Positions 12,460 to 61,965 of a stretch of DNA of 64,000 nucleotides are shown piece after piece (the stretch's first letter is position 1; the number at the start of each line of letters is the position of its first letter). Origin of the DNA: Torpedo marmorata (lineage: Eukaryota); NCBI GenBank assembly GCA_977017645.1, contig OZ360222.1:81282001-81346000 (forward strand), in the 5' to 3' direction. The notes under the pieces are model-generated. The model searched no databases. It had not been told where the DNA came from and was given only the letters and a program-made list of their open reading frames with translations. Position numbers and translations under genes: made by a program.

Positions 12460-12780
12460 ATATCTCACTCTGCTTTCCACTAAACCTGCTTGTCGTTCCC
12501 TTCCCCTCCCCCCTCACCTGTCCCTGTTTTTCTCCACCTACCCAGCCATCCCTCCTCCCCCTCTTTGCTGCTGTCCCCTCCCTCCTTTCTCCACCTATCA
12601 TCTCCTGCCTTTGCCACCCCCCTTCCCCCCTCACTCTTTTGTTCGGACGCCTGCCGGCATTTTCTCATACTTTGATGAAGGGCTCAAGCCCGAAACGTCG
12701 GTTATGTATTTCTACCTTTGCTACATAAAAGACACTGTTTGACCTGCTGAGTTTCTCCAGCATTTGTGTTTTTTACTCAC
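12460..12780 (+). mobile_element. Penelope-like element pseudo-LTR fragment carrying a hammerhead motif
   Basis: Pyrimidine-rich tract, then TTGATGAAGGGCTCAAGCCCGAAACGTC and GACCTGCTGAGTTTCTCCAGCA. Confidence 0.75.
12666..12706 (+). ncRNA. Minimal type-I hammerhead ribozyme motif (variant core, probably degenerate)
   Basis: (U)UGAUGA core, stem II GGGCT-CA-AGCCC, GAAAC-GUC, short stem I CATACT/GGTTATG. The canonical C3 reads T. Confidence 0.55.
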
Positions 12781-14207: not shown

Positions 14208-14334
14208 AAGTACTGGAGAAACTCAGCAGGTCATGCAGCATAAATGGAAAGCAAAGAAAGCTTCAGGCCCAAAACGCCAACTGCCGATTGCTTTCCATGG
14301 ATGCTGCATGACCTGCTGAGTTTCTCCAGCACTT
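14208..14334. repeat. Palindromic Penelope-derived element (47-bp inverted arms)
   Basis: AAGTACTGGAGAAACTCAGCAGGTCATGCAGCATAAATGGAAAGCAA and its reverse complement, 3 mismatches. Confidence 0.85.
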
Positions 14335-15872
14335 TTTGGACTGTAATGATAAGTCTGTTTCTCACTTCACAGATGTTGCCTGAATTGCTGGATATTTCAG
14401 CATTCTGCTTTTAATTTCAGATTTTCAGCAAGTACAATGTATTGCTTCTCCAGTTTGTATATCCCAGTTACAGCATTGCTAATTTTCTCCTCTTTTATTT
14501 AGCTCTCTCCCTCTGTTTTATTTCTTCTGATCCTACTCACACCTCCTCCACATAGATCAGCAAACCTGCACCTCACTCTCTCAACTGGCACCTCCATCAC
14601 TTCTGTCCATCTCTATTGGCCTTCATCTACTATTGGCCATTCCTCTGTCTCCCCTTTTTTGGAGCATAAAACATGTCTGGTTTCTAACTTTTTTTAGTTC
14701 TCATAATGTTGTTAACCTGAAGTGTTAACTCTGTTTCTCTCACCTCAAATGCTGCCTGGCCATCTGAGTACAGTATTTCACACATTCTCTCCTTTCATTT
14801 CAGATCGCCATTATCTTCAGTTTTTGGTTTTCAAAAGCCAAAACGTGAGTTCAACAGCAGCAACTAAAACAATGTTATTTATCCAAAAATGGGAACAATG
14901 ACTGAGGTGCCTACAATACTCAACCAATTAAAGACAAATTCAATCCAACAATTTACCATCCCATCAACTGATTTGCAATGATCAGAAAATGACACAATCT
15001 TCTGTCAACCGTGCTTTTAAATGTGATTTAATTATAAATAACATGCTAGCCAGTGCTCAGTTCTCCCAATTTCATCCAGCTCTCAATCTTGCCCTCACTG
15101 CTAACGTGAATACCACATTTCAACATCAGAGATAAGGTGTAAAGTGACATCAAGACATTTAAAAAGTGTACCATGAAGGAGTCAAATTAAGATTTGTTCT
15201 GCTTGATGGCAGCTATTCATCTCTGCCCCAGGACATTGTTTCTGGACTTCCTCAAGGAAAAATCTAAAGGTCCAATTATATTCAACTAATTTATCACAGA
15301 CTTTCCTCACCTCACAAGGCCAGAAGAGACACTATTTACTAATCATTGTTCAATCTTCTTCTCGACTTATAACTTGTTAGGCAATGAGACAATCCATACA
15401 TACAAGCAGGTTCTGGCTGAAAATGTTAAATAATATTACTTGTGACACAAATGTTATACAATGGAGATCAAAAGGGAATGGACAATAATAAAATAGAACT
15501 TCAATCTTTGGCTTTCCTGCCATCAAAATCCTGAGTATCTCTGTTGACCAAGAGTTCATCTCAAACTTATATTTTGGCTACCAAATCATCTTCGCAGTTG
15601 AGTTTTCTGTTTCAAGTGGCTCACCAAATGACCCTCCAAATCTTCTTTATAATCTAGAAAACACAAGTCAGGAGACCAAACGAATTCTCTCCATTTGCTT
15701 TGATAGGTGCAGTTGTAATAACACAGAAGTACTGTGAAAATAATCAGAACAGAGTTTGTTTGCTGGTTTATTCACAGATTTATGTATCCACTCCCTTCAC
15801 CAGTGGCACACTGTGCATTTAATATACCGTCATCTTAGGCAGTGCCTCATGATCATGGATGACTTATTAAAA

Positions 15873-16586
15873 AGACAAAAGTGCTGGAGGAACTCAGCAG
15901 GTCTTCCAGCATCCATGGGAGGTAAAGATAACACTGGACAATGAAGATGTTGCTTCCTGTACACTTTTGCATGTATTTTATGGATTTTGGACTGCTGATC
16001 ACTAAAATCACCTTAAGAATTTCCTGTCACATACCGATGTTTTAGATATAACCTATTTTTGTGATTTCCTGTCATATTTTAACTCTACTTCGAGCATACA
16101 GAACCATGAAGTGCAACCTGTTATTGAAATTTCATTTTCTACATTCGCACTTGGACTTATTCCCTGCTGATCTTGGTGCAGTCAGTGATGAACATGGTGA
16201 AAGGTTTCACCAGGACATTGTGACCATGGAAAAGCGGTATCAGAGCAACTGGAATCCCTCAATGCTGGCCGACTATTGTTGGACACTGACACGAGAGGCA
16301 TCAGATGCTGAGTACAAACGAAATTCGGTGGCAAAACATTTTTAGGTGAGTTGCACTAATGCAATGTGTCAGCATCATTATGTGATTAAACATGCTAAAT
16401 TCAATAATAGTTAATTGAATGTTTATCTAACTTCCTACGTGAAACAGCAAATCTGAAATTATCTTTGTGTTCAGCGTGAAGTTGTCTATCATAATTCACA
16501 TTTTGTTTTCAGGAAGCAAACCTTTTGAAAAAAATTGTTGTCCAGTGTAAATAACCAAGGTTTCGGGCCTGAGCCCTTCTTCTAGT
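15873..16586 (-). mobile_element. Penelope pseudo-LTR fragment split by the Chapaev3 insertion
   Basis: CTGGAGGAACTCAGCAGGTC...GGTAAAGATA resumes at 16548 as ATAACCAAGGTTTCGGGCCTGAGCCCTTCTTC, the reverse complement of the 12672 motif. Confidence 0.7.
15932..16547 (+). mobile_element. Chapaev3-type (CMC) DNA transposon, deletion derivative with transposase C-terminus
   Basis: TIR CACTGGACAA...TTGTCCAGTG, 3-bp TSD TAA, ORF 16061-16345 LKFHFLHSHLDLFPADLGAVSDEHGERFHQDIVTMEKRYQ...MLADYCW. Confidence 0.8.
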
Positions 16587-19500
16587 CCAGCTTTGTTGGT
16601 TCTAAAGTGGCTATTGATGCCAATGTTGGACCACAGACACTTCCACATGTGGGGGAATTGATGGTTTTCAGTGTGACGTGATCCTCCCCTTCTGCTGTCC
16701 AAGATCTTCTAGGGGAAGTGATTACCAGGCAGACAGGAGGAAAGATTCAAACTGGAGAATGAGCTTTTGGGAAGGTATTGAAACTCTCAAGCCCATACAT
16801 CAGGAGCAGACATGGGCCCTCCATAAATGGCATGCAATATGGACAATCAAATTAAAGCATTGCAGCAACCAACCAAGACTTCTTCATCACACCTCCCATA
16901 CCTGCAACCTACATCATTCAGTAAGACTAAGAAATGTATAGGAACAATATCACCTTTTCCAAGTCATACATTTATCTGACTGTCATGTATTTCATCATTT
17001 TTCCACCGATGCATCAAAATTCTTAGAAACTCGACATACCAACATTTTGGGAGCAGCTGCACAAAAGAATCACAGTGGTTCAATAAAGCATGCAAATGTC
17101 ACCTTTCTTGGGACAATTAGGCAGTACAACCGTCATCTGTAAATGAGAAAAAGACAATTAAATGTCACTTCGGATTGTTTGGATGTATAGCTGATGCACA
17201 CAAATTAATGTACTTATAGCAATTGCCAATAAACATTAAATGAAAGAGACTGGATTACTTGCTTTCGCCAATAACAGAAGCAAATTTAGGCATTTTAGTT
17301 TGAATGTTGAGCCTCTTTACCTACAGCAGAGGCCTGGGAAATTATTGTCAGAAAATGAAACAAAAATTCTAGTCAACAGCAAGGGAAAAATAGTAGAAAA
17401 ATATTGATAGTTTCAAAAGCAGGAACTAACTTTCACCCTTAACCTGCCACTATTTTCTGGAAAATCCCATCTTCCTGCATCAACTCATGCACATACAGTT
17501 GTTTTGAAAATAGTTTTATGGATAAAAATACATGCTTCTTAAAAATTGCTCTATTACTATAATAGTATCACCACTCTGTCAAATTAAACACCATCAAGGG
17601 TAAATTGTCCATATGCTTTCCTGCATGTCTCTTTTTACTATTATCTTTCTTGCATCAGTCCCTTGCACACTAATTGTACGTGTTCCCTGTTTGGAAAGCA
17701 GTAATTAAGAAGGCAGTCTTGAGTCTAATAAAAAGAATGGAATGTGGGGATTAACCCAGTGAGATATTCAACCATGCAATTGATCTCTGAAACAAGAAAT
17801 AGAGATTGGATGAAGGGGGAAAGATGCAATGCAGAAAATGAGGCATTCATTTCTTGTATCTCTCAGTTATAGTGTGTGCCAAACAAGCAACCTCAAAGAT
17901 ATCTTGTCTTTGCCACAGTACTCTCAATCAGATAATAGAGACATGCCAAAAATATAGGCAGGATTATTTTTATATTAATATTTCTGATTGTAATGCTTTC
18001 AGGAGAGATGAGGATGGAAAAGAACAAGTGGATTGGCTCACCAGATTGTAAGATTAGATTTGAATAGAATCTATTATGAAATGGTTAAATAACAGGAATT
18101 AAAATGTTTGAATGAGATAGAGGTAGAGATCTGCTGACAATTCTGAAATTTGTAGGAACAGCAGAGCAATAATATTGATAAATTCAAACAATATCAGGAT
18201 AGCCTGAAATTAAGATTATTGATAAAGTCCAAAGATGCAATACTTTCTAAAGTTCATCCAGGTCTACTTCTAGAGCAGTGGGTTTATCATTCACTAAAGC
18301 AAAAAAATAATACTGTAGTCAATTTGATTATGGACCATTAAATGTGGAGTTGGTAGTGACACAGAACCCTCCCCTGCACCTGAATATAAAGCTATGGTAG
18401 ACATGGCACTAGGAAGTTTGTGACAATTCAAGGTGGGGTTGCTTTTCTTCACTTGCTTGTGAAACATTTTTAATTTGAATGCTATTATTCAAGATTGACC
18501 TTGTGCATAATGTGGTAAAATATGTCTTCCTCGGCTTTATCAAAAATCATGGGTCTGGGTCTGATTTCCTTGTTAACTGTTCCTTGTAGAACCAGTAAGT
18601 GAGGCATTTATAAGGTGGGGGCATCTGCTTGTGGGGAAAAGGAGGCTAGTTCAAACTATGATTAATATGTGACCAGAAATAACAATTTAAAAAGTAGGGA
18701 TATTTTAAATTTATATTTTGTGATCGATATAGATTCTCTTTAAATATTCAGGAGCTTTATGTGGATATTTGCTCCAATTTTGCTTTATTAAACAATTTAA
18801 TGGGTAAATCACGTATATTGTTACATTGACCTTGTCAACACAAGCAACCAAGATATTTCAGAGATACTGTGAAACAAATGGTACATAATTGTTTCATGGG
18901 TGAAAAGAGTCTCCATTTTCATTTGTACCAATATTTTTTTCTATCAAGATGTCGAGGTAATACAGCTCCTTAATACGTTGCCCCCACACAACCTGACATG
19001 AACATGACCCGAGTGAACGCACAATCCTGCAATTGGCCAGTTAATGTCAATCTAAATTAACGTGGACCAGCGAGTTGCTTTTATCTGGATTTTTATATGA
19101 ATATCGACACCTAAAATGGTATTTTTCACACATTTCTGTTATGTGACTACTCAGTGTAACCTATGGTTCGGCAATGTGTAATGATTAACAATACCAGCTT
19201 CACTTGCTTAGCTAGAATTTTTCTGCTTCGTAGTTCTATCCAATTTTCTCTTTACGTTGCTGTTACCATTTTCTTTCTCAGCATCACTGAAGTTTTATTT
19301 TCAAACATAGTACACGTAAACTCCGAAGATACCATCTAAGCCACTTGTAATCACAGTGTGACTAGCAGGTAGACAAGGTGCAGTTACACAACGACAGCGT
19401 TGACACAGCTGTATTCGTGCTGGGGACAATTTAAGGTCCAAAGTTATTATTCTTCGATAGAATTTCCAACTTGTTAACACGTCCTTGTACAAATATTACT

Positions 19501-37854: not shown

Positions 37855-37901
37855 TAGGCTGCTGGTAGCTTGTACAATGTGTACAAGCTACCAACAGCCT
37901 A
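37855..37901. repeat. 47-bp near-perfect palindrome (22-bp arms, 3-nt loop)
   Basis: TAGGCTGCTGGTAGCTTGTACA-ATG-TGTACAAGCTACCAACAGCCTA, one mismatch. Confidence 0.95.
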
Positions 37902-38175: not shown

Positions 38176-38829
38176 ATTGCATTACGGAACTGCATTTTGA
38201 TTTCCCTGCATTGCTGGATTCCTCCAGGTAGAAAACATCATCAACTGCATGGATGTAACTTCCATCCATTTAATGTACAACTTCTTTTAGCTGCAGGCTT
38301 GCACCTAGCATCCTGGTTGTAAGTATGCATTCACAGTATGCCTGTCCTCGACTCTCACTCTTTAACATCTAAACCATGATGTGGCTGTTTGGCCAGAGGT
38401 ATCCTTTCACTACAAGACCAGTCCTTCCTGTCAGGAATGCAAACTCAGACAATGAGCTCAACTGCACTACGAAACCCATCACCCACTTACTCGATGCACA
38501 GAGTATGAGAGCAAGAAGCTTATCCTAGAACTGTATGCAGCAATGTAAGGAAGAACATTTCAGCACAGGAACAGGCCCTTTAGCCACAAGACCATGATGC
38601 CAAATTAAATTTCGCCTGCATAGATTCAAGAAGCGCAGGCGAAGCTTGTAAGCTACTAGCAGATCATCTCTTCTCATAAGTACAGCCATTCTACTCTGCT
38701 CTCCCTGTACTCTAACACTTTCTGTCTACTGTGTGATTGTTAGAGCTGGCCTTTTAAACTGCTTGCAGAAGAACCCTTCTCACTATTCTAGGTATAATGT
38801 GATAAAAAAGCTTAAACTTGAACTTAAAC

Positions 38830-40804: not shown

Positions 40805-41455
40805 ACCATAGAACATTACAGCACAGAAACAGGCCCTTCGGCCATTCAAGTCTGTGCTGATCCATTTTTCTGCCTAGTCCCACTGACCTGCACCCAGTCC
40901 ATAGCCCTCCATACCCCTCCCATCCACGTACCTGTCCAAATTCTTCTTAAATGTTAAAATTGAGTCCGCATTCACCACTTCAGCTGGCAGCTCATTCCAC
41001 ACTCCCACCACTCTCTGTGTGAAGAAGTTTCTTCTCCCCCACCACCCCCCCATGTTCCCCCTAAACTTTTCCCCTTTCACCCTTAACCCATGTCCTCTGG
41101 TTTGTATCTCACCTTCCTTCAGTGGAAAAAGCCTATCTACATTTACTCTGTCTATACTCCTCATAATTTTAAATACCTCTATCAAATCTCCCCTCATTCT
41201 TCTACACTCCAGGGAATAAAGTCCTAACCTGTTTAACCTTTCTCTGTAACTCAGTTCCTGAAGTTCTGGCAACATCTGAGTAAATCTTCTCTGCACTCTT
41301 TCAATCTTATTGATATATTTCCTGTAGGTAGGTGACCAAAACTACACACAATACTCCAAATTTGGCCTCACCAATGTCTTATACAACTTTACCATAACAT
41401 CACAACTCCTATACTCAATACTTTGATTTATGAAGGCCAATATGCCAAAAGCACT
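40805..41455 (-). mobile_element. Younger CR1 3' fragment
   Basis: ORF 40874-41296 QRRFTQMLPEL...SYRERL..LGLYSLE.RRMRGDLIEVFKIM...TRGH...FFTQRVVGVWN.LP. Confidence 0.95.
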
Positions 41456-42410
41456 CTATCTTGTGACATCTATCACAAATTGCCTTCATGTTATCCCTGG
41501 TATTTGCTTTACCTAACAGCCTTACAACCTAACAGCCTTACGATGTAGCCACCAGGAGTTATAGTATGTCACATAAAATCTATCTTTAGGCTCTTGAGAT
41601 GTCATTGGTGGGTAAGTTCAAGGGAGATTAATTGAAACTGGACCAACATTGCCTGAGATCAATAACAGCTAGCCAAAGAATGGGTGTGTTGTCATCCTGA
41701 ACCATGTGTTTGGATCAAGAATCAAAGCCACCGATGAGCCTGAGCCTCAACCACTTCCGTTACTATTTCAGATCTGGTGTAATACATATGTTTGTGAAGT
41801 CTCCAATTACATTAGTCTCTAAGCTTTGTATGACAGGTGAGAGGCTATATCTCAAAACCAAGAAGCTAGCTTTCTCATCTTCTAGTAAAAGAATTTCTGA
41901 ATCTGTAATCTTGTGCTAGGCCTTCAATCCAAGGTTGACTGTTGTCTCAGTGCTGTGCACGAAGACAGCAAGAATCCACTGGCCTCGGACTTTGTACATG
42001 AGCACCCAACAAGGCGTCTGGTTCTCTTTAAAAGGTGCACATTAACTGCTTACTGTGCATAGCAGGATAGTTACCTTGAACAAGGTTAGCTTCTAATCTA
42101 CTGCTTCTCTTGTTGTTTTATACCCCTGTCTTTCCTCTCAAGTTAACATTGCAGTTGAATTTCTACAAGCATGCAGGGAAACTGGAACTTGTTGTCTGAA
42201 AGGGCAGTAGAGGCAGAAACCTGAATCTGCCTATTCAGGGCCTTAACCTATGGAGCCACAAATCAGGAGCTGGGAAGTGAGATTAATCCGAATAACACCT
42301 TTCTTGACCAGCATTGATACGATGTGATGAATGGCTTCTGCGATATTTTGTTAAACGTTAGTCCAAGTGAATCTCAGAATGATATGAGTTGAAAAGGATA
42401 GCTTAGATTG

Positions 42411-42587
42411 CAGGGATGGCAAACCTTTTAATTTTTAATTTAGACATACAGCACGATAACAGGCCATTTCGGCCCATGAGTCCATGCCGCCCAATTAACC
42501 TACATCCCCGGTACGTACTCGTGGGCCGAAATGGCCTGTTACCGTGCTGTACGTATAAATCAAAAATTAAAAGGTTGGCCACCCCTG
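42411..42587. mobile_element. Chimeric fold-back MITE: hAT-type TIRs with inverted V-SINE tail arms
   Basis: CAGGGATGGCAAACCTTTT...AAAAGGTTGGCCACCCCTG; ~71-bp arms contain the SINE tail; flanks GCTTAGA(TT)G and GCTTAGAG. Confidence 0.8.
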
Positions 42588-42591
42588 GCTT

Positions 42592-43140
42592 AGAGTCATA
42601 GGGTTTTACACCACAGAACAGGCCCTTTGGCACAACTTTTCTATGCTGTCTACATGAACTAGTCCCATTTGCCTGCATTTGGCCCATATCCTACTAAACC
42701 TTTCCTATCCAGGTACCTGTCAAAATGTCTTTTAAATGTCATAGCTGTACCCATTGCTACAATGTCCTAGCCTATCCAGCCTCTTGTATCTCAAGTCCAC
42801 CAATCCTGGTAATATTCTCATGAATCTTTTCTGCACCTTTTCTATCTTCTTTACTTATTTTCTATAGCTGGGTGACCAAAACTGAATACAATATGCTAAG
42901 TGTGGTCTCACCGATGTCTTGTACAGTTGTAACTTGACATCCCAACTCCTGTTCTCAGTGCCCTGACTGATGAATGGAAGCATCCTAAATGCCTTCTTCA
43001 CCACTCTGTCTACCTGTGTTTCCACTTTCAGGGAACTATCGACCTGTTCTACAATACTTTCCTGGGCCCTACCATTTCCTGTTCTCTGGTTTAACCTGCC
43101 AAAATGCAATGCCTTGCACTTGTCCAATTTAAATTCCATA
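42592..43140 (-). mobile_element. CR1 fragment
   Basis: ORF 42855-43139 MEFKLDKCKALHFGR...SLKVETQVDRVVKKA...LYKTSVRPHLAYCIQFWSP. Confidence 0.9.
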
Positions 43141-43861
43141 GTTTAGCTGCCCTTGTCAATTCATTGAACTTCTTCCCAAATTACGCCCTGTGTGTGACAT
43201 TGTCCACTCAAATCTGGTGGCTGGCTTGGAAAGTTTGCCACTACCTGCTAGTTGGAAGACATCACATCTCCTATTGCCCTCCTTCACCAGTATCTCTGAA
43301 GCATGGTCTAAAAATCTCTTGCAACTTTTCTGCTTGACCTTGCTCTCTGATCATTCTCTGCAACCAAGCTCAATATCCCCTTTGTAAGAGGTGCAGATTG
43401 TAAGATACGTCTCCCATCTGGTAAGTTGCCAGTTCTCAACATGAGCTGCACTGCCACCCTGCCTACTTAGTTCTTGTTCATGAGATCCACATATGAAGAG
43501 TCTTGTTTGCAGGTATAGATCAGGCGAGCATTTCACTTGCGGATCCCCTTCTGCTCACAAAGACACTATGAGAGTAATGTTTACCTTTAAAGTTTCATAT
43601 ACTGTGTTATTGGCATTCACATACCCTTGGAAAATATATTCATCCAGCTGGTTGTATGGAAAGAACAAATAATTGAACAATATTTTCTTATTAGTATTCT
43701 ATTTCCTTCTTTCCTGTAGCATCATATTACTTTATATGAAAGGAACATAAGATTGATAAACATTAAAACAGCTGCATATTCTCTTAATTGTGATTTTCAC
43801 ATGCCACAATGAAGTGAATAAACAGAGTAATTTTGAAAGAGCAAAATAGTTTGAAACACCA

Positions 43862-46800
43862 ATTTTTTTTTAACCTAAAATAGACTTTATTCACAATAGA
43901 TTATTTACAAAAGGAAAACCATTCAAAATCTCTTCCAACCATTAACTTTGTATCCATACATTTCCATCGCTATTAATTGTTACATTCATTTCTATTTACA
44001 CCATTGCCACCACTGTGGCATCATGTCGTTACTCTCCCTTCTGTTGTTTGAGGGGCTTCTCCTCGGTCTCGGCCCCTCAATGCCCAGTAATGGAAGGACT
44101 GTAGACTGTGGTCCTTCCCCCACAGTGCCCTCGTGTTATCTGCGCCAAACATCAGTGCATCCGTCAGAACGTACTCCTGCAGCCTGGAATGTGCCAGTCA
44201 GCAGTATTCCCACACCGACATTTCTGTGTGCTGCCAACAGGTTTCAGGCAGATCAAAGTGTGTCTTTTAACAAGTTGATGGTCTTTCAGCAGTTCTGGAA
44301 GTCTGACTCTGTGCGCATCCCCGGGAACAGCCCGTAATCAGAGAATCCTCTGTGATGCTGCTGTTCTGGATGAACTGTGACAAGGACCCTTGTTTCCTTG
44401 TCCACACACTCCCAGTAAATCTGCTTTCTGCAAAGAGGTGGGCGATGGTCTCTACTCCATCGCACTCATCTTGGAGACAATGTGCGGTATGGATGATGTT
44501 CCCGTTGTACAGGAATGATCTGATTGGAAGGGCTCCTCTCACCGCCATCTAGGCCAAGTCCTGGTGCTTATTTGAAAGCAATGGCAATGAGGCATTCCGC
44601 CAGATGAGCTGGACGATCTACTCCGGGAACCACCCCACCGTGTCCATCGAGTCCTTGTCTCTCAAAGTGTTTGCAGGACGTTCCATGGGACCACTGCTAG
44701 ATGGCCTTGTGGTCAAAGATGTTTGTCTGGAAAAACCTTTCCACGAAGGCTAGGTGGTGTGTCAAAATCCAGGTGACTGGGACATTGCGCGGCAATAGGG
44801 CCAGGCCCAATCCTTCGCAACACCTGGGACAGGTAGAACCTCAGAACATAGCAGCACAGTGCCCTCATACTTTGGTTCCACGCACAGCCTGTTGCACCCA
44901 CACACATTGTCTGGTGACTTGTACATGCCAACCTGTTGGACCTTTTCCATCTTGGATCTCCATATGAACCTGAAAACCAGAATCTCCCACACCTCCTCTG
45001 GTGGAGGTGCGGGTGATTGGCCACACCTGTGCCACGTACAGCAGAACCGAGAGCACCTCGCATCTGATGACCAGGTTCTTCACAGACGTGTCCACAGACC
45101 CAAGTTCTGGTGGACCTTTGCAATCCGCTCTGGCCAATTTTTGTTGCATGCCTCGGCCCATCCAAACCAAATCCCCAACACCTTCAAGTAGTCAGATCTG
45201 ACTGAAGGGGATAGTTGACTGGCCAGATTAGTTACCAAAGAGCATTGCTTCGCTCTTCTTCTGGTTTGGCCTGGCATCCGATGCAGACTCAAAATGACTG
45301 CAGATGCTGATCAGTCTGTGGAGTGATCGTGTGTCCGAATAGAAGTCCGCGATGTCATCCATGTACAGGGAGGCCTTGATCTGAGTGCCTCCACTGCCAG
45401 GCAACGTCATTCCTCTTATACTCTCGTCCTTCCTGATGGATTCAGCAAAGGGCTCTATGCAGCACACAAATAAGACGAGAGAGAGTGGGCAACCCTGCCT
45501 GACTCCAGACTTGATGGAGAACCTATTTGTTTCCCACCCATTGATTTGAACTGCACTACAGATGTCAGTTTAATCTAATTTCAGATTCCATCCCCAAATC
45601 CTATTTTGGAGAGCACATCCATCATGTACGTGTGTGATATCTGGTCAAAAACCTTCTTGAGTACGCTGACCAGGCAGGTGTCCACCTTCCTGTCCTGCAT
45701 GTAGGTGATGCTATCTCTGAACAGTGCGAGGCTGCAGAGATTTTCCTGCCCAGAACCGTGCAGGTTTGGTCTGGGTAGATCACCTGCCCCATGGCAGACT
45801 TGACTCGATTGGTGATGGCTTTGGACAGGAATTTGTAGTCAACGTTTAACAATGAAATGGGTCTCCAATTCCTGATTTCCTTCTTCTCCCCCTTCTGTTT
45901 GAAGATAAGGGTGATGATTCCCTTCCTCATGAAGTCTGACATGCTGCCTGCCAGGAGCATAGTAGTGTATACTCCCAGCAGGTCCGGACTCACCCAGTTC
46001 CACAGAGCCATGTACAACTCAGCCAGTAAGCTGTCGCTTCTGGGAATTTTACTCAACCCAAATGAACCAGGGTAATTGGCTGGTCCAAACTCTCCTGCTT
46101 GCAGTCGTCTAAGACCTCCGTGATAGAGGACAGGATGCACTGGGAGGCCATTCTGCCTCTAGCCTTAGTGTCGTACAGTTCAGCATAAAAGAATCTGCTG
46201 TTCCTCTGAATGCCTCTCTGCAAGGTTGTGACTGAGCTGCCCTCTTCCTTAAGTCGGTGAATCACAGAGCTCCCTGTGTGAACCTTTTGGAAGAAGAAAT
46301 GTGAGCATGTCTCATCCTGCTCCACTGTGCGGACTCTGGATCAGATGATGATCTTGGAGAACTCTGAGGTGAATAGCGCATCTTGCTGGATCTTTGCCTC
46401 TTGGATTTCCTCCCTCACCTCCACCCCTTTCAACTTCAGAAGGAGGAATTGCTGCAGGTCAGTCTGGAGTTGGCTCAGTTCCCTATGCCTCTGTCTTGCT
46501 CTCCGAACACCTTTCAGGATAAATAACCTCTTGATGTTCTCCTTGGTCTCTTCCCACCAGTTCACTGGGGAGTCAAAGAAGGGTTTCACGGTTCTCCAAC
46601 CAGCGAACGTACTCCTTCTTTAGTTCTTCTCTGTTCTCTGGTGTCAGCAACTTCACGTCCAGCTTCCATATTCCCCTGCCCACCTTCTGGTCCTCCTGTA
46701 GGTGACAGGAGACATGAAGGAGGCAGTGGTCAGAGAAGAACACCGGCATGACATTGGTGGTTCTGAACGTGACAGCCTTCGACACGAAGACGAAGTCTAT

Positions 46801-47156: not shown

Positions 47157-48155
47157 TTTTTTAAACCAAAAATGGACTTTATTCACAATATTTTTTTTAC
47201 ATAAGGAAAACCGTCCATAGTCTCTTCCCACGCTTAGTTTCATATCCATAACATTTCCATCATTGTACATTGTTACATTCATTTCTGTTTATACCATGAC
47301 CACCACTGTGGCATCTTGTTGTTACTCCTCCTTCTGTTGTTTGAGGGACTTCCCCTCGGTCTCAGCCCCTCAATGCCTGGTAATGGAAGGACTCAAGACT
47401 GTGGTCCTTCCCCACATGCTATCTGCACAAAGCCTCAGTGTGGCCCTCAGAATGTACACCTGCAGCCTGGAATGTGCCAGTCGGCAGCATTCCCTCACCA
47501 ACATCTCTGTGTGCTGAAAGACCAACAGGTTTCGGGGCAGACCAAAGTGCATCTTTCACCGAGTTGATGGCCTTTCAGCAGTTCTGGATGTCTGACTCTG
47601 TGTGTGTCCCCAGGTACAGTCCGTAAATCAGAAAGTCCTCTGTCATGCTGCTGCTGTGGATGAACTGTGACATGGACCCTTGCTTCCTTCTCCACACACT
47701 CCTCGCAAATCTGCATTCTGCAAAGAGTGGGCAACTGTCTTCTTTCCACCGCAGTCATCTTGGGGACAGCATGCGGTATGGATGATGTTCCGGTTCTACA
47801 GGAAGGATCTGACTGGGAGGGCTCCTCTCACTGTCAGCCAGGCCAAGTCCTGGTGCTTTTTCATGAGCACTGGTGATGAGACATTCCACCAGATGACCTG
47901 AACAGTCTGCTCAGTGAACCACCCTACCATGTCCATCGATGCCTCGTCTCTCAAAGTGTCTGCAGGATGTTCCATGCTGAGTACTGCCTGATGGTCTTGT
48001 GATCAAAGGTGTTTGTCTGGAAAAACTTTTCCACGAAGGATAGGTGGTGTGGCAAACTCCAGTTGACGGGGACATTGCGTGGCCACAGGGCCAGGCCCAT
48101 CCTTCGCAAACGGTGATTATGATGCAGCCACACACTAAGCTGATGAGCACACCAT
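47157..48155 (-). mobile_element. Second Tx1 3' fragment, directly adjoining the first copy
   Basis: Colinear with 43862-44820 (shared GACTTTATTCACAATA 3' end and RRMGLA/WPRNVP/SFVEKFFQTNTFDHK). Confidence 0.9.
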
Positions 48156-54100: not shown

Positions 54101-54210
54101 ACTTCTGGTTTGTCCGCTGTGGATCAGTTGCCCTCCTGCTTTTGTGCCAGAGGCTGTGTGTGGGTCCAAATCTGACTCCAGTTGATTGAAAACAGAGTAA
54201 ATTGTTGTTC

Positions 54211-55036
54211 AAGATTCAAGATTCAATTTGTTATCATGTAATATTGCACTGTTTTTATTACATGAAATTCACTTTAGTCTGCCGTAGGGCAGAGAGATTC
54301 GCCATCAGCAGAAATTGCCTGAAGCACCTCTTACAGTCAGAGAAAGAGAAGCAAAAGAGAGTCGCCCCCCCAGAGTCACCTAGTGTCCGTGGATTTGCCT
54401 CCAGCGCTTACGCAGCCCACGCAGCCACAGAGTCCAGTCCAAACCATCAGCAGCCCGAGTTCCAGATCCGAACCTCCGACATCATCAGGAAGCCTTCAGT
54501 GCCCTCAGCACCCTCTTGCATCCCAGTTCTGATACCTGGTACCCCTTCAGCCAGTCTTGAGCCAGTCTCCAGCAGTCCGCCATCTGGTGTGAATCCCTCG
54601 CCTCGAATCTCCAACAGCCGACCGACCGCCTGTGCATTTCTTCAATCGCTGAACTCCTCACAGGTCCACTGCTGTGATCACCGTCCCATGGGTCCTCTCC
54701 TCTGCTTCTCCTTCTCAAACGGGGGTGGGGGGGGGGGGTGGTTGTCTCCTCGCTTTCTAGTGCCCTGCACCAGTCCTCTGCTTCCCCGGAATTGGCAACC
54801 CCTCGTGGCTGCTGCCGATCATAGGCACTGCCATCTTGGGCGCAGACACCGCGGTCGTAGTATTTTAATTAAAACCACCGTTGGCTCCATTTACAGGCCC
54901 TTTAAAGCCTGTACAGAGCTGACGGCAGTCGGACTGGGTGGATGGACCCCGCGGGAGCGCTGTGTCTCCGCTCCTCACTCTCCACAGGTCCTCGGCAGTG
55001 CTGCCGTTACAGCAGCTCTGGCAGCACCGCCATCTT
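54211..55036 (-). mobile_element. GC-rich non-autonomous retroposon, copy B (more diverged)
   Basis: (CAAGATT)n tail at the left, CCGCCATCTT head at the right, flanking TTGTTC duplication (54205-54210 and 55035-55040). Confidence 0.88.
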
Positions 55037-55174
55037 GTTCCAGTGGTGAGGAGGTGCACTATAGTGCAACATGATATTTTAAATTGAAACTTTCTCAGAG
55101 GACACATAAAATCAAACGGTGGATCCAATCTCAGATTAGGAAAATCATTGCAGGGATCGTGGAAAATATTTATC

Positions 55175-56015
55175 AAGATTCAAGATTCAAGATTCAATTT
55201 ATTGTCATAGTAATAAGACAGTGTCATATTCCATGAAATTTCTTTTTGCCTGCTGCAGACAGATTCGCCACTGGCAGAAATTGCCTAAGCGCCTCTAACA
55301 TTCCTTACAGTCAGAGAAAGAGAAGCAAAAGAGAGTCCCCCCAGAGTCACCGAGTGTCCATAGATTCGCCTCCAGCGCTTCCGCAGCCACACAGAGTCCA
55401 GTCCAAACAATCAGCAACCCAAGCTCCAGATCCAAACCTCCGACACGGTCAGATCGCCCTCGGCACCCCCTCGCAACCCGGTTCCGATACCTGGTACTCC
55501 TCCAGCCAGTTCGAGCCAGCCTCCAGCAGTCCGCAGCCCGGCGTGAGTCCCCCGACAGCAGTCTCCAGCAGCCCACAGCCTCCGCGGGTTCCTCGCCTCG
55601 AGTCGCCAGCAGCCCGCCGCATGCACTGGTCCTTCAGCCTCAGAGCCCCTCACCGGTCCGCCACCGTGGTCACAATCCCGTGGGTGGTCTCCTCCGCTTC
55701 TCCTTCTCAGACGGGGGGTGATCTTCCCGTCCTCTGGTGCCCTGCTCCACTCCTCCGCTTCCCTCGAATCTGCAGCCCCTCTTGGCTGCTGCAGGTTAAA
55801 AGGCGCTGCCATCTTGGGCGCAGACCCCGTGGTCGCGGGATCATAAATAAAACCACCGTTGGCTCCTTTAATGGGCCGTTCAAAGCCCGTGCGGAACCGA
55901 TGGCAGTCGACTGGGCAGCTGGACCCCGCGGGAGCGCTGCATCTCCGCTCCCATGCTCCCCGCATGTCCGCACCAGCGGCAGCGCTGCCGCTATAGCGGC
56001 TCCGGCAGCGCCGCC
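55175..56015 (-). mobile_element. GC-rich non-autonomous retroposon, copy C
   Basis: Close match to copy A; TSD ATTTATC (55168-55174 and 56016-56022); the empty site is visible in the duplicated copy at ~60262-60275. Confidence 0.92.
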
Positions 56016-56217
56016 ATTTATCCCTCAACCAATAGCTAAACACATAATATCTAGTCATTATTACATTCCATTTTCTTTTCTGCATATTATTGCTGCCTTT
56101 CACAATCATAACATCGATTATGCATTAATTGTATCCTGTCATGGAAGGTGTATGAATTCAAGCCCTTCTTTCTTTATCTTGACATGGATGGCTGATCGTT
56201 ATATTGCATCTTAATCC

Positions 56218-59200
56218 GATGATCCAGTATTTTTTGAAAAGTTTTTTTCCTTTTTACCTGATTTAAATCGGTATTCATTGATTTTGGGAGGTGATTTTAG
56301 TTTTAGACTGTTCTTCGTTAAAATTATCAACTCTCTCTAAATCTGCAGTATTATTACATTCCTTTATGTCGAATTTTGGTATTACAGATGTTTGGCGTTT
56401 TTTAAATCCCACTAGTAGAGAATATTCTTTTCTGTCCAATGTTCATCGTTCTTATATGAGGATAGATTACTTTTTAATTGATAATCAATTAATCTCTATG
56501 ACTAAATCATGTGAATATCAAGGAATAGTGATTTCTGATCATGCTCCAGTTATTTTATCTATGAACTTCAATGATATCCCATTTATAAAAAGACATTGGA
56601 GATTTAATACGACTCTCCTTGAAAATCAAGATTTTTTAAACTTTATGGAGAAGCAAATACAGTTCTTTTTTGCTACTAATTCTTCTCCGACGATGTCTAA
56701 TTTGATAGTTTTGGAAACTATGAAATCCTATTTGAGAGGACAAATTATTTCATATACTGCTAATATTAAGAAGAAATCTAATAAGGAAAGATCTGATTTA
56801 ATTAACCAGATTAAACAAATTGACATTCAATTTTCTCAAAATAAAAATCCAGATTTGTATAAGAGAAGAGTAGAGCTTAAAGCAAAATTTGATCTTCTAT
56901 CTACTTATCCCGTTGAGCAACAATTGTTAAGAAGTAGAAGTCTCTTTTATATTCATGGAGAAAAAACTAGTAAGTTACTAGCTGGACAATTGAAATGAAT
57001 TTCTGCTAAAAAACAAATAAATAAAATTAGGATGAAAGATGGAAAAATGACAACAGATGATCTTGAAATAAATGAGACTTTTAAGGAATTTTACTCTAAC
57101 CTCTATAAATCAGAATTTGGTAATAATCATGACTTGATGTCATAATTTTTGGATCGATTGAATCTTCCGGTATTACCTCAGGATGAACGTGCAAGCTTTG
57201 AGAAACCTATTTCTCAAGAGGATATAGCTGTCGCTTTTTCCTCGCTACAGTCTGGTAAATATCCAGGGCCAGACGGATTTCCTGTGTAAGTTTATAAACC
57301 TTTCTCCAACCAGCTTGTACCTCATCTGAGTGTGGTATTGGGTGACTCATTTAATGAGCAAAAGCTTCCCGTATCTTTTAATGAGGCCAGTATTTCCTTA
57401 ATTCTTAAAAAGGGTAAAGAATCGACTGAATGCACATCTTATAGACCCATTTCTTTACTTAATGTGGATATGAAGATTTTGTCCAAAGTATTAGCACATA
57501 GATTAGAAAATATTTTACCTTTAATTATCGATTCAGATCAGACTGCTTTTATTAAAAATCGTTATTCATATTATAACATTAATAAATTTTGGAATATTTT
57601 ATATTTATCTTCTACTCCAGCGACGGAATGTGTCCTTTCATTAGATGCTGAAAAAGCATTTGATCGGGTGGAGTGGGAATATTTATTTGCTATTTTACAT
57701 CAATTTAATTTTGGTTCTGATTTTATTAAATGGATTAAGTTATTATACTCTTGTCCTATTGCCTCAGTTCGATCTAATTTACAACAATCAAATATGTTTC
57801 GGCTTAATAGAGGAACCCGACAGGGTTGCCCATTAAGTCCTTTGCTTTTTGATATAGTATTAGAACCTTTAGCTGTTGCTCTTCGACAATGTAGAGAATT
57901 TAAAGGTATAACTAGAAAAGGAATTGAACATAAAGTATCTCTCTATGCAGACAATTTATTGTTATTTATTTCAAACCCTGAAGTCTCTATACCAAATATA
58001 TTAACCCTATTTACTCAATTTAGTCAATTTTCAGGGTATAAATTAAACCTACAAAAGAGTGAACTATTGCCTTTAAAAGGACCTCTTATTGGTTATTCCA
58101 ATTTTCCATTTAAAATAGTGAGCGATCAATTCCAATACTTAGGAATAACAACTACAAAAAACCATAAAAATTTACTGAAAGAAAATTTTTGGGTATTAGT
58201 TAATAAGATTAAATTACAATTATTGGGTTGATCACCCTTATCAATTACAATGATGGGCCGTATTAATTTGATTAAAATGAATATTTTGCCTAAATTTTTA
58301 TATCTTTTCCAATCCTTACCAATTTTTATTCCTAAAACTTTTTTTACTTCATTAGATTCGATTCTTTCTTCATATATATGGCAGGGAAAACATCCACGAA
58401 TAAATAAATCCCATCTTCAAAAAATCAAAAGAAATGGAGGGTTATCACTTCCAGATTTTAGATTTTATTATTGGGCTATTAATATTCATAATTTGCTTTT
58501 GTTATTGCAATTTGATAAGTTAGAGAATCACCCATCCTGGGTGGAAATGGAATTGAAGTTTTCAAAAAAATCATCGATGTTTGCAATTTTAGGAACCTTT
58601 TTACCATTTTCATTTGTTAAATTAACTCATACCCATTATTGAGATATAGGTTGAGAATATGGGCACAGTTTAGAATTTTTTTTGGATTTAATAGCTTTTC
58701 TCTGGCTAGTCCTATTATAGATAATCACATTTTCCAGCCGTCTGAAATGGATGTAGGATTTAGGGAATGGTATAGATTGGGAATTCATAGTTTTAATGAT
58801 CTTTTTATTTGAGATAGTTTTGCCATTTTTGAACAATTGGTCAATAAATTTAACCTTACTAATAGACAATTATTTAGATATTTACAAATTAGACATTTTA
58901 TTCAGTCTAAGCTTTCAGATTTTCTTCGAATTTCAAGTTCTAATTTTCTCGATTTACTTTTTAATCTACGGTTCTTTTTCCAACGTGGATTAACATCATG
59001 TATATATAATAATTTATTGGAAATCAGAGTAGCTTCTATGACGGGGATCAAGAATGAATGGGAATGTGATTTGAATGTTACATTTTCAGATGAAGATTGG
59101 TATAATGCTCGATCTAATTAATGCCTCATCTTTTTGTGCTAGACACTGTTTACTACAATTTAAAGTGGTACATAGAATTCACGTTTTTACACCGACATAG

Positions 59201-60000
59201 ATCCATTGTGTGAGAGATGTAAAATTTTTGAAGCTTCACTGATACATATGTTTTGGGAATGCCCCAATTTGGAGAGATTTTTGAAGGATATTTTAAAATC
59301 TTTATCATTGATTTTTAAGATTAATATTGAACCATGTCCTATAATTGCTCTGTTTGGTTTTTCACGTGAACCTAACATACCTTTGTCTTCATCACAGGAA
59401 AAAGTTTTAGCTTTTTCCACATTGATTGCCAGACGAGCAATTTTATTGAAATGGAAAGATGAGTTATCACCGACACATAGACAGTGGTTACAGGATGTAA
59501 TGTCCTATCTGAGTTTGGAGAAAATTAGATATAATATTAAAGATAGAAAGTTTCAATTTTTAAAGATCTGAGGGCCATTCATTGAATACTATTATGATTG
59601 GAAGAATTAACAAAACTGACTATCCCGAGGAGTCTCTGTCCGATGCTTGGAGGTCGCTGCAGGATCCATACCTTTTTTTTGTTCTTTTCCTTCTTTTTTG
59701 CAACATCAAGGTAACCTTGCTTAGAGGGAGGGGTTAGAATAGATTAGTTATTAGTGTTTTTTTTTGTCTTTTTTTTTCTTTCTTTTTATTTTATTTTCAA
59801 TTGTTCTTTTTTTAAGATAATTATACAGAACTAGAGTTTTAACCTATATTCAGAATTTAGTTACGACAATTTACCTAGTTTTTAAAAAATATATATACAT
59901 GTATGAATACCAGCTGATTTTTTGAATGTTTTTCTTAATTTTGTTACTTTGTATGCATGTTTATTGTTGAAACTCAATAAAAATATTTTAAAAAGAAAAG
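56218..60000 (+). mobile_element. L1-clade LINE (fish-type), 5'-truncated within the endonuclease; ORF2 has stops and frameshifts
   Basis: DDPVFF..LILGGDF, RIDYFL, ISDHAP, WRFNTTLL, PGPDGF, YRPISLLNVD, SLDAEKAFDRVEW, RGTRQGCPLSPLLF, LYADN, YLGI, CERC...HMFWECP; AATAAA at 59976 and A-rich tail. Confidence 0.97.
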
Positions 60001-61716
60001 AAAGCCTGTACAAAGCTGACGGCAGTCGGACTGGGCGGATGGACCCCGCGGGAGCGCTGTGTCTCCGCTCCTCACTCTCCGCAGGTCCTCAGCAGCGCTG
60101 CCGTTACAGCAGCTCTGGCAGCACCGCCATCTTGTTTCAGTGCTGAGGACGTGTACGACAGTGCAACATGATATTTTAAATTGAAACTTTCTCAGAGGAC
60201 ACATAAAATCAAACGGTGGATCCTATCTCAGATTAGGAAAATCATTGCAGGGATCATGGACAATATTTATCCCTCAACCAATAGCTAAACACATAATATC
60301 TAGTCATTATTACATTCCATTTTCTTTTCTGCATATTATTGCTGCCTTTCACAATCATAACATCGATTATGCATTAATTGTATCCTGTCATGGAAGGTGT
60401 TGTATGAATTCAAGTCCTTCTTTCTTTATCTTGACATGGATGGCTGATCATTATATTGCATCTTAATCCTATTAGATATCTGAAATGAGGAAATGTAACC
60501 CATAAAAGTAAGATTTTTCCGTTGGCTGTAAGAAAAAGATTGTTATCATTAAACACTTGGACTCTATACAATTGCGGAGAAGTAGGATAAAAATGTAACA
60601 TTTTATTATTCCTTGACAACACTGTCCTTCGTGGGCGGGGGGTACGGATAAGATGATTGTTAGCTAGTTCTTCGAGGAGTAGTTGTTGGGTACCAAGTCC
60701 TGGCTGGCTTTTGTCTGACATCATCAATTGTCTATCACAAAATGCAAGTTCTAACAAATTTCTGGCAGGTGATCAAAGGCTGACTTCCCTCCCAATACCA
60801 AACCAGTGGCAATGAGACCAGTTGTATATCCCTCCCTACTACTGCTGCAACTGAGATCAATAACTTATTGTAGGTCAGCAATGAACCCAGGATTATTCTG
60901 GTTATCATATTTTCTCGTGGTTCATATTAGATTATCAAATAATATTTTGCATAGAGGTCTTTTAAGGGATCCTTAATTAAAAATTAAAGTAAATTTTAAT
61001 GCTCCTCCATTCAAAGAACAGAAATAATTTTATTATTTTTTCCATTCATATTCTATGTCATATTTAATTTGGTATTAAAAATTATATCGTTTGTATATTC
61101 ATGGCACTGAATGTTTTTGACCAAGGTTCCTTCCAAGTGTTGAACCAGTACACATGGTTGAACAGCCAAGGTCAGTGAGATGAGTATACAAGCTGTAAAT
61201 CAAAAGTCCACTGTTATCGTGCCCCATTTTCACAATAACTTTCTGGCTTCTAAATGTTCAAAATTACCTATTAAATGAAATTACTTTGAATAATTATTAT
61301 ATTTGTATCAATAGATTGAAGCCTTAGCCAACCGGCAACTCTAGTTAATCTTAGCAGTAAATTGTGCGCTTTTTACTCCAATTAGTGAGTATTGTGGCAT
61401 AGGAATTGTGTAAGTTAATAATACAGAATCCAGTATTACAAAGCAGTCGACTGTATTTTTCCAATAGGTTATGCAATTAGCAGTTTTTTCATTTAATATT
61501 AAAATAATTTCATCAGCAAGAAAGCTGACCATCTTCTCCAATCTACTCTTATCAGCTAAATAATTAGTTAAGATAAACCTTATTCTTTATGCAGTAATGC
61601 TGTATTATTAATTATTCAGAAATTTCCGCCAAAGGTGACATTCAGGAGTTTTAACCATTTGTAGTATGCATAAACTGCGAACTGCTTCTAAATTGTACAG
61701 AGACACTATAGTTATA

Positions 61717-61965
61717 GGGGCGGCACAATTGGCGTAGCGGTTAGCGCAACGCCTTTACAGCGCCAGCAATCGGGACCGGGGTTCGAATCCCGCGCTGTCT
61801 GTACGGAGTTTGTATGTTCTCCCCGTGTCTGCGTGGGTTTTCCCCGGGGGCTCCGGATTCCTCCCACCGTTTGAAATGTACCGGGGGTGTAGGATAATTG
61901 GGTGAAATTGGGCAGCACCAACTTGTGGGCCGAAATAGCCTGTTACCGTGCTGTATGTCTAAAGA
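61717..61965 (+). mobile_element. tRNA-derived V-SINE (HE1-like), full length
   Basis: A box TGGCGTAGCGG, B box GGTTCGAATCC, V-core, CR1-like tail. Confidence 0.93.

What the first reader, a model, noticed from the sequence alone, without database searches (positions are those of the whole stretch)
42411..42587. Chimeric MITE: hAT/Charlie-type TIRs enclosing an inverted pair of SINE tails
Seen: a 177-bp fold-back with ~71-bp arms. The outer ~19 bp (CAGGG(G/A)TGGC(C/A)AACCTTTT) look like a DNA-transposon terminus. The inner ~45 bp are the 3' tail of the same V-SINE found at 3426, 4570 and 61717, once in each orientation, and the loop is also SINE sequence. The flanks read GCTTAGA(TT)G and GCTTAGAG. 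Established: hAT-Charlie elements begin CAG(G/T)G and make 8-bp TSDs resembling NTCTAGAN. Inference: a SINE landed just inside a hAT TIR, that end was copied by fold-back, and the chimera then moved as a cut-and-paste MITE. That would be retroposon sequence recruited into a DNA-transposon family, giving a long intronic hairpin that could yield small RNAs.
Basis: partly seen in the sequence, partly recalled or inferred. Interest (0 to 1): 0.75.

Follow-up and report, generated by a model that had tools for sequence, protein, structure and literature searches.

The report
Transposon-tipped hairpin built from SINE tails
A 177-base hairpin in what looks like a shark or ray genome joins the tips of a cut-and-paste DNA transposon to two mirror-image pieces of a retrotransposon; it may belong to a hybrid mobile family, but only one copy could be seen.

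Summary
The anatomy holds. The 177-bp fold-back has 71-bp arms, 64/71 matched (z = -14.8). Its right tip is identical (16/16) to the published hAT-Buster2 TIR. The interior is the 3' tail of the V-SINE found three times in the window. Both arms share one TIR/tail junction, and the turn sits on an imperfect inverted repeat already in the SINE, so one end was copied by fold-back. The right flank is a Buster-type nnnTAnnn 8-mer. The left copy is broken by 2 nt, though the 7-bp duplication exceeds chance (5e-4). Not shown: that the chimera itself moved. No second copy was found, but no eukaryotic genome collection was available and the other negatives say little. It lacks Buster subterminal repeats, and symmetric Hermes ends barely transpose, so in-place repair of a resident Buster element is a real rival. 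'Intronic' and small RNAs are unsupported. A V-SINE inside a MITE has a precedent (MER6). Verdict: new variant of a known kind; mobile chimera about 0.55; interest 0.45.

The parts
42401..42410 (.). Left target-site duplication remnant (7 nt identical to the right flank, then 2 extra nt, then G; or a 10-bp copy with 2 substitutions)
   Evidence: chance of a 7-mer match within 10 nt is 4.9e-4 (31 of 63045 positions) and 5.1e-4 (417 of 810540)
42411..42426 (+). Left Buster-type TIR, 14/16 to the published Buster2_NA_NH TIR
42427..42438 (+). T-rich spacer: reverse complement of the SINE's terminal T/A repeat; the first Ts are ambiguous between transposon end and SINE tail; likely priming site
   Evidence: alignment; the priming role is inference
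42439..42481 (-). V-SINE 3' tail core, original copy (SINE sense is minus), with the 4-bp tail stem-loop at 42462-42474
   Evidence: stem-loop folds in 4 of 4 strands
42482..42516 (-). Loop: contiguous SINE sequence with an 11-nt deletion. Holds the last 12 nt of the V domain (42491-42502) and the imperfect inner stem 42482-42489/42509-42516, the likely fold-back primer
42517..42559 (+). V-SINE 3' tail core, inverted copy made by fold-back, stem-loop intact at 42524-42536
42560..42571 (+). Inverted copy of the T-rich spacer (11/12 with the left)
42572..42587 (-). Right Buster-type TIR, 16/16 identical to the published Buster2_NA1/NA2_NH TIR
42588..42595 (.). Right target-site 8-mer with central TA (Buster rule nnnTAnnn); overlaps the tail repeat of the adjacent CR1 copy
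   Evidence: a central TA occurs in 6.6% of window 8-mers
42591..43137 (-). Older, decayed CR1-type LINE 3' fragment, at whose 3' junction the element sits (far end approximate)
   Evidence: about 70% to other CR1 copies; tail alignment
3426..3671 (+). Reference V-SINE copy 1 (source family of the interior)
4566..4806 (-). Reference V-SINE copy 2
61717..61963 (+). Reference V-SINE copy 3
   Evidence: V domain 64 of 73 to MER6's by hand count

Best explanation
A non-autonomous hAT-Buster MITE assembled from a retroposon. Step 1 (product shown, route inferred): a CR1-dependent V-SINE inserted at the T-run just inside one end of a Buster element. The plus strand reads TIR, T-run, SINE cDNA, which is the polarity of target-primed reverse transcription from that T-run. 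Step 2 (anatomy shown, timing inferred): about 90 nt into the SINE the new strand folded back on a 7-8 bp imperfect inverted repeat native to the SINE. It was then extended back over the tail and the TIR, giving two copies of the same transposon end. This happened during reverse transcription or at a later replication or repair event. Step 3 (inferred): a Buster transposase in trans cut the palindrome at its two CAG tips and inserted it at an nnnTAnnn site on the 3' junction of an older CR1 copy. The copy has since decayed neutrally (about 5% per arm). If step 3 happened once it probably happened repeatedly, so this is most likely one member of a small chimeric MITE family. Confidence in the anatomy (steps 1-2) is about 0.9; the number given is for the whole statement.
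For: Right TIR 16/16 to Buster2_NA_NH (PMC4298943). The palindrome ends exactly at the TIR tips, whereas in-place copying has no reason to stop there. The 7-bp duplication has chance about 5e-4, and the central TA fits Buster (PMC3517528; background 6.6%). Both arms share the same TIR/spacer/tail junction. At the turn, the element pairs 5 Watson-Crick + 1 wobble of 8, and the three natural SINE copies pair 4+2, 6+1 and 4+2. Random breakpoint pairs reach 5+1 in about 1% and 6+1 in about 0.1% of 19306 pairs per copy. The arms share 0 substitutions and have 2+2 private ones against SINE copy 1 over 43 nt, so the fold-back came early (low power). SINE copies are 4.7-6.5% from their majority, the same age class. 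The fold-back route for MITE origin is published (Angel model, PMC5172404). Inference: a rare structure met in a sampled window is more likely to belong to a family than to be a one-off.
Against: No second copy or other Buster end in 64 kb, although a 1000-copy family would show a second copy only 2-3% of the time. The left TSD is broken right at the junction; the adjoining 8-mers match at 2 of 8. The published Buster2 subterminal 8-mer is absent (0 matches at up to 1 mismatch), and Buster ends are reported as conserved over about 106 bp. In Hermes, an Ac-family hAT, RE/RE showed no activity and LE/LE little; Tol2, Tag1 and Ac need 100-200 bp per end (PMC10368747). The inner stem is not the minimum-energy fold of the SINE cDNA in 3 of 3 natural copies. 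No autonomous Buster partner was seen in the window.
Confidence: 0.55

Rival explanations
1. One-off rearrangement in place. An ordinary Buster element inserted here and made the TSD. A SINE later landed inside one TIR. Then excision and gap repair, or a replication switch, folded that end back and rejoined at the other TIR, deleting the interior. The chimera never moved.
For: It explains the TIRs and TSD equally well and needs no transposition without subterminal repeats. The 2-nt break in the left TSD could be an excision or repair scar (inference). Ordinary decay would put an indel in the 16 TSD positions only about 9% of the time (4 internal indels in about 690 SINE sites, hand count). The two TIRs differ at 2 of 15 sites, as a parent's left and right TIRs may. 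Other short palindromes occur in the window (14208-14334, 37855-37901).
Against: The TIR mismatch rate is no higher than the body's (2/15 vs 5/56, Fisher p = 0.63), as expected if both ends are copies of one end. It needs three events at one locus. Sampling favours members of families over singletons (inference).
Confidence: 0.33
2. The unit was spread by CR1 reverse transcriptase, alone or as well as by transposase, because a transcript of either strand ends in an intact SINE tail stem-loop.
For: Both arms keep the tail stem-loop. The SINE tail resembles the CR1 tails in the window (24 of 28 at 40817-40843). The element abuts a CR1 3' end.
Against: Both ends stop exactly at TIR tips with no added tail repeats and no 5' truncation, and the target has a central TA. 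It has no pol III head. The CR1 neighbour is far more decayed (about 70%).
Confidence: 0.06
3. Two independent SINE insertions into the two ends of a MITE, or a plain local SINE inversion with chance TIR-like ends.
For: The SINE is abundant: 3 near-full copies in 64 kb.
Against: Both arms have the same junction and spacer, whereas the three free SINE copies all have different tail ends. An exact 16-mer match to a published TIR at the very tip, plus the duplication (5e-4), is not chance.
Confidence: 0.04
4. Assembly or library artefact (a chimeric fold-back read).
For: The assembly has N gaps at 6718-6940 and 6993-7219, so it is a draft.
Against: The arms differ at 7 of 71 sites, whereas a fold-back artefact would be nearly perfect. 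It has TIR tips and a duplication.
Confidence: 0.02

Closest known systems
MER6/MER6A (Tc1/mariner MITE carrying a V-SINE; PMC6887750, parts 1-3 of 5 of the text and supplement passages read)
   Same: V-SINE sequence without its tRNA head, held between DNA-transposon ends; built by a SINE inserting into a non-autonomous DNA element.
   Different: MER6 is Tc1/mariner (24-bp TIRs, TA TSD, 865 bp), keeps 56-104 bp of both parental ends and holds one near-complete SINE body. Here the ends are hAT-Buster, only about 16 bp, both copied from one end, and the interior is an inverted pair of SINE tails. MER6 has thousands of copies; this one is seen once.
Buster2_NA1/NA2_NH (nhAT-5a/2a_Nhu), hAT-Buster MITEs (PMC4298943, first part of section 5 and supplement 1 rows read)
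   Same: TIR identical over 16 nt; short and non-coding; target with central TA (rule from PMC3517528 passages).
   Different: Buster2 MITEs are asymmetric internal-deletion derivatives with subterminal repeats right after the TIR; by eye nothing past the TIR resembles this element. No common descent is claimed beyond TIR type.
Angel-type palindromic MITEs and the fold-back model (as summarised in PMC5172404, passages read)
   Same: Whole-length palindrome, nascent-strand fold-back proposed as origin.
   Different: The published model concerns copying of an existing palindrome. Here the fold-back point and both parents (a retroposon and a hAT end) can be read off the sequence.
HE1-type V-SINEs of sharks and rays with CR1-like partner HER1 (table and passages in PMC3747384 and PMC4824008; CR1 nature of HER1 is recalled)
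   Same: The source SINE has a V domain and a tail like the window's CR1 tails.
   Different: The element holds only about 90 nt of the 3' end.
Palindromic MITEs that yield microRNAs (Made1/miR-548, MER53/miR-1302; PMC3742188 passages)
   Same: A palindromic MITE able to form a long hairpin if transcribed.
   Different: No transcription, host gene or processing shown here, and the arms decay without compensation.

Membership tests
hAT superfamily, Buster family (non-autonomous) | Short TIR (5-27 bp) of Buster type | tested here: met
   Right tip 16/16 and left tip 14/16 to the Buster2_NA_NH TIR
hAT superfamily, Buster family (non-autonomous) | 8-bp TSD directly flanking both ends | tested here: inconclusive
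   A 7-bp duplication beyond chance (5e-4), but the left copy is offset by 2 extra nt; adjoining 8-mers match 2 of 8, the 10-bp reading 8 of 10
hAT superfamily, Buster family (non-autonomous) | Target consensus nnnTAnnn | tested here: met
   Right 8-mer has central TA; background 6.6%; one site only
hAT superfamily, Buster family (non-autonomous) | Subterminal repeats or conserved ends beyond the TIR | tested here: not met
   Buster2 subterminal 8-mer: 0 matches at up to 1 mismatch, 3 at up to 2 (window mean 0.79 per 177 bp). So it is not filed as a Buster2 member; it works like a Buster MITE
hAT superfamily, Buster family (non-autonomous) | Cognate autonomous transposase with the same TIR in the host | not testable with these tools
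   No eukaryotic genome collection; no hAT domain among 360 ORFs scanned in the window
MITE | Short, non-coding, TIR-bounded | tested here: met
   177 bp; its two open frames have no Pfam match and no credible homologue
MITE | Many homogeneous copies with different TSDs | not testable with these tools
   One copy in 64 kb. GTDB scans were negative even for the SINE control, so they say nothing
V-SINE (source of the interior) | Conserved central V domain | tested here: met
   Copy at 61717 matches the MER6 V domain at 64 of 73 (hand count); the element's loop holds the last 12 nt, 12/12
V-SINE (source of the interior) | tRNA-related head with A and B boxes | tested here: inconclusive
   The free copies' 5' ends resemble published V-SINE heads by eye; ARAGORN finds no tRNA; the element itself has no head
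V-SINE (source of the interior) | 3' tail shared with a partner LINE | tested here: met
   24 of 28 to the tail at 40817-40843, which belongs to a CR1-like ORF remnant
miRNA/siRNA-producing hairpin | Transcribed and processed into discrete small RNAs | not testable with these tools
   Rfam: 0 hits at gathering score; 5 generic hairpin matches far below gathering; no reads available

The most novel reading that the evidence does not exclude
It is a real multi-copy family in which a Buster transposase moves a fully symmetric element with only 16 bp of transposon sequence per end. SINE tail sequence would then stand in for the subterminal binding sites that hATs normally need. Both strands end in an intact LINE-recognition stem-loop, so some copies might also be retroposed by CR1 (a class I / class II dual-mode element), and read-through transcripts would make dsRNA against the tail of an abundant SINE and its LINE.
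Probability: 0.1. Interest if true: 0.75.

Novelty: new variant of a known kind. Interest (0 to 1): 0.45.

Why it matters
MITE birth is usually inferred as internal deletion of an autonomous element. Here both parents and the fold-back point are readable, so this is a clear case of the fold-back route with retroposon DNA as filler. If other copies exist, the element contradicts the rule from Hermes, Tol2 and Ac that hAT ends need 100-200 bp of asymmetric subterminal sequence. That makes a direct test: does a Buster transposase move a symmetric 16-bp-TIR substrate, and does the SINE tail supply the missing sites? If it is single-copy, it is a tidy repair fossil of little wider importance. A SINE inside a MITE is not new (MER6), which caps the surprise.

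Tried and rejected
Second copies. Window: the TIR motif with up to 3 mismatches gave 4 matches, 2 being the element's tips and 2 lying inside decayed LINE sequence (chance mean 0.91). A profile of the two ends found only the two tips at significance. GTDB genome contigs: 0 for the junction pattern and 0 for the SINE-tail control, so this collection holds no detectable related DNA and the negative is empty. Plasmids: no match. The element is open in one frame on each strand, so translations were used to look for mis-predicted ORFs from other copies. Result: no candidates and 1 weak hit among 1.84 billion representatives (E 1e-4), an unrelated repeat protein judged chance. A CR1 control found 44 proteins, one named from a bamboo shark (55% identity). 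So related LINE peptides are in the set, but a 60-residue spurious ORF would rarely be called, and absence is weak evidence. The metagenome and viral contig collections stayed unchecked, and Dfam, Repbase and any shark or ray assembly were not available.

Host gene. 353 of 488 stop-to-stop ORFs of 48 aa or more (those wholly inside three retroelement blocks were dropped) plus 7 retroelement ORFs were scanned against Pfam. Hits were retroelement-type domains (RT, integrase, and the ALKBH8_N model on LINE-like ORFs), three below-cutoff hits, and one zf-C5HC2 hit at 17842-18048 just above cutoff (23.8 vs 22 bits). That hit had no PDB match and is treated as probably chance, not excluded. A crude splice-site scan gave 7 candidates, none convincing by eye. 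Short exons could be missed, so intronic status is open.

Hairpin function. Rfam matches are generic and below gathering. The idea that the inner stem dominates the fold of the SINE cDNA was not supported; it counts only as junction microhomology. The idea that the GC-rich hexamer at 42470-42475 mimics Charlie-type subterminal repeats rests on recall. It occurs twice in the element against 0.04 per 177 bp in the window, but those two are one site and its mirror, so it is only a lead.

Literature. Ten searches showed no description of this element or of a hAT MITE made of inverted SINE tails. The library lacks most subscription papers and Repbase Reports, and the original V-SINE, HE1 and Angel papers were not read. 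PMC4255032 (passages) had coelacanth palindromic MITEs and SINE composites but nothing like this. The PMC5804259 supplement had none of the search terms. Supplements 2 and 3 of PMC4298943 were not read.

Full report
Setting. The window is repeat-rich vertebrate-like DNA with a Ty3/gypsy pol remnant, several LINE remnants and three near-full SINE copies. The CR1 fragment at 40877-41341 found 44 proteins; the only one with a species name is from a bamboo shark (55% identity). V-SINEs with a LINE-related tail are listed for sharks and rays as HE1/HER1 (PMC3747384 table, PMC4824008 passages). A cartilaginous fish is therefore the likely host. That is an inference, and the species was not pursued.

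The observation. Positions 42411-42587 form a 177-bp fold-back. The arms are 71 bp with 7 mismatches, or 79 bp at 87% with a 19-nt loop if the imperfect inner stem is counted. It folds at -109.5 kcal/mol, z = -14.8, and 0 of 200 shuffles fold as well. The inverted repeat ends exactly at the CAG tips; the flanks do not pair.

The ends. A full-text search for the terminal motif led to PMC4298943. There the bat MITEs Buster2_NA1_NH and NA2_NH have the TIR CAGGGGTGGCCAACCT. The right tip is identical at 16 of 16 and the left tip at 14 of 16. The next Ts could belong to the transposon or to the SINE tail, so the secure transposon part is 15-16 nt, not 19. Buster elements make 8-bp TSDs of type nnnTAnnn (PMC3517528 passages). 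The right flank GCTTAGAG fits; 6.6% of window 8-mers do. The left flank repeats its first 7 nt, followed by 2 extra nt. Such a 7-mer match within 10 nt occurs at 31 of 63045 positions at this spacing and 417 of 810540 over many spacings. The duplication is real but imperfect: the adjoining 8-mers match at 2 of 8, and a 10-bp reading gives 8 of 10. The target overlaps the tail repeat of an older CR1 copy of about 70% identity, so the element arrived after that LINE.

The interior. Each arm holds 43 nt of SINE tail, and the loop is the next SINE stretch with an 11-nt deletion between short direct repeats. The SINE is a V-SINE: the copy at 61717 matches the MER6 V domain at 64 of 73 (hand count), and the loop holds the domain's last 12 nt. 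Its tail resembles the window's CR1 tails (24 of 28), and the 4-bp tail stem-loop folds in 4 of 4 strands tested. The left arm and loop are contiguous SINE, so they are the original and the right arm is the copy.

How it was built. Both arms have the same TIR/spacer/tail junction, while the three free SINEs each end differently. That means one insertion, then duplication. The turn lies on an imperfect inverted repeat native to the SINE. Of 8 pairs, the element has 5 Watson-Crick + 1 wobble, and the three free copies have 4+2, 6+1 and 4+2. Random breakpoint pairs reach 5+1 in about 1% and 6+1 in about 0.1% of 19306 pairs. This is the mark of snap-back priming, as in the Angel model (PMC5172404 passages), although that stem is not the lowest-energy fold of the cDNA. 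Over 43 nt the arms share no substitution against SINE copy 1 and have two private ones each. The free copies are 4.7-6.5% from their majority. So the fold-back happened while the SINE sequence was fresh, and possibly during reverse transcription itself, since the plus strand reads TIR, T-run, cDNA. Four substitutions give little power, and a later replication or repair event is not excluded.

Did the chimera move? This is the open point. For: the palindrome stops at the TIR tips, there is a Buster-type duplication, the TIRs are no more diverged than the body (2/15 vs 5/56, p = 0.63), and sampling favours family members. Against: the Buster2 subterminal 8-mer is absent. Buster ends are reported as conserved over about 106 bp. 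In Hermes, an Ac-family hAT, RE/RE showed no activity and LE/LE little, and Tol2, Tag1 and Ac need 100-200 bp per end (PMC10368747, passages and section 14). The break in the left TSD might be an excision scar; ordinary decay would give an indel there about 9% of the time (hand count). No second copy was found, but the searches could hardly show one. A 1000-copy family gives a 2-3% chance of another copy in 64 kb, assuming a 2-4 Gb genome. GTDB lacked even the SINE control. Protein searches with the element's open frames were blank. I put a mobile chimera at 0.55 and in-place rearrangement of a resident Buster element at 0.33.

Hairpin function. The RNA folds on either strand (-106.9 and -121.6 kcal/mol), but the arms decay without compensation. 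Rfam gives nothing at gathering score and only generic hairpin matches below it. No convincing host exon was found among 360 ORFs scanned; one borderline zinc-finger hit 24 kb away was not confirmed. 'Intronic' and 'small RNAs' remain conjecture. A 71-79-bp stem is longer than a typical pre-miRNA stem (recalled) and would suit dsRNA editing or siRNA processing better. Palindromic MITEs do yield miRNAs elsewhere (PMC3742188 passages).

Comparison and novelty. MER6 is a Tc1/mariner MITE that carried a headless V-SINE to thousands of copies (PMC6887750, parts 1-3 of 5), so retroposon capture by a MITE is known. The differences here are the hAT-Buster ends, only 16 bp of transposon per end, both ends from one parent end, and an interior made wholly of inverted SINE tail. 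It works like a Buster MITE but fails the subterminal-repeat test, so it is not filed as a Buster2 member. Ten paper searches showed no description of it. Dfam and Repbase could not be checked, and if it is multi-copy an automatic repeat library may already hold it.

Verdict. Observation confirmed; interpretation partly supported; new variant of a known kind; interest 0.45. The most novel reading, a true family moved without subterminal repeats and possibly also by CR1, has probability about 0.1 and would merit 0.75. One BLASTN against the host genome would decide between the two main readings.

Noticed in passing
window 14208-14334 (relatives at 12735-12774 and 15870-15925): A second palindrome (47-nt arms, 94%, 33-nt loop) from a different repeat family. 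Nearby 12674-12708 and 16548-16582 fold into small hairpins that look like minimal hammerhead cores of Penelope-like elements (resemblance recalled; no Rfam hit at gathering).
   Followed up: partly
window 54904-60472: An L1-type RT element (about 56221-60000; RVT_1 E 3e-38) is flanked by a roughly 470-bp direct duplication (54904-55174 plus 56016-56220 vs 60001-60472, 95-97%). The first copy is interrupted by an 850-bp repeat. This is far longer than an ordinary LINE TSD.
   Followed up: partly
window 1440-2303, 54208-55033, 55179-56017: A GC-rich repeat of about 850 bp with a short tandem tail, three copies at 73-91%. One copy interrupts the gypsy pol remnant. No family assigned.
   Followed up: no
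window 76-2901: Broken Ty3/gypsy-type pol remnant (RT and integrase domains), interrupted by the 850-bp repeat.
   Followed up: no
window 37855-37901: Small 47-bp palindrome (89%), also resembling sequence near 38640-38660 by eye; not classified.
   Followed up: no
window 17842-18048: Borderline Pfam zf-C5HC2 hit (23.8 bits, cutoff 22) with no PDB match; probably chance, possibly a decayed exon.
   Followed up: partly
window 43865-44820 and 47157-48109: Two decayed copies (83%) of the 3' part of another LINE, with RT remnants at 45231-46158 between them.
   Followed up: no
window 43136-43146: The far end of the CR1 copy is followed by an 11-mer resembling the sequence left of the element; possibly the CR1's own decayed target duplication, seen by eye only.
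   Followed up: no
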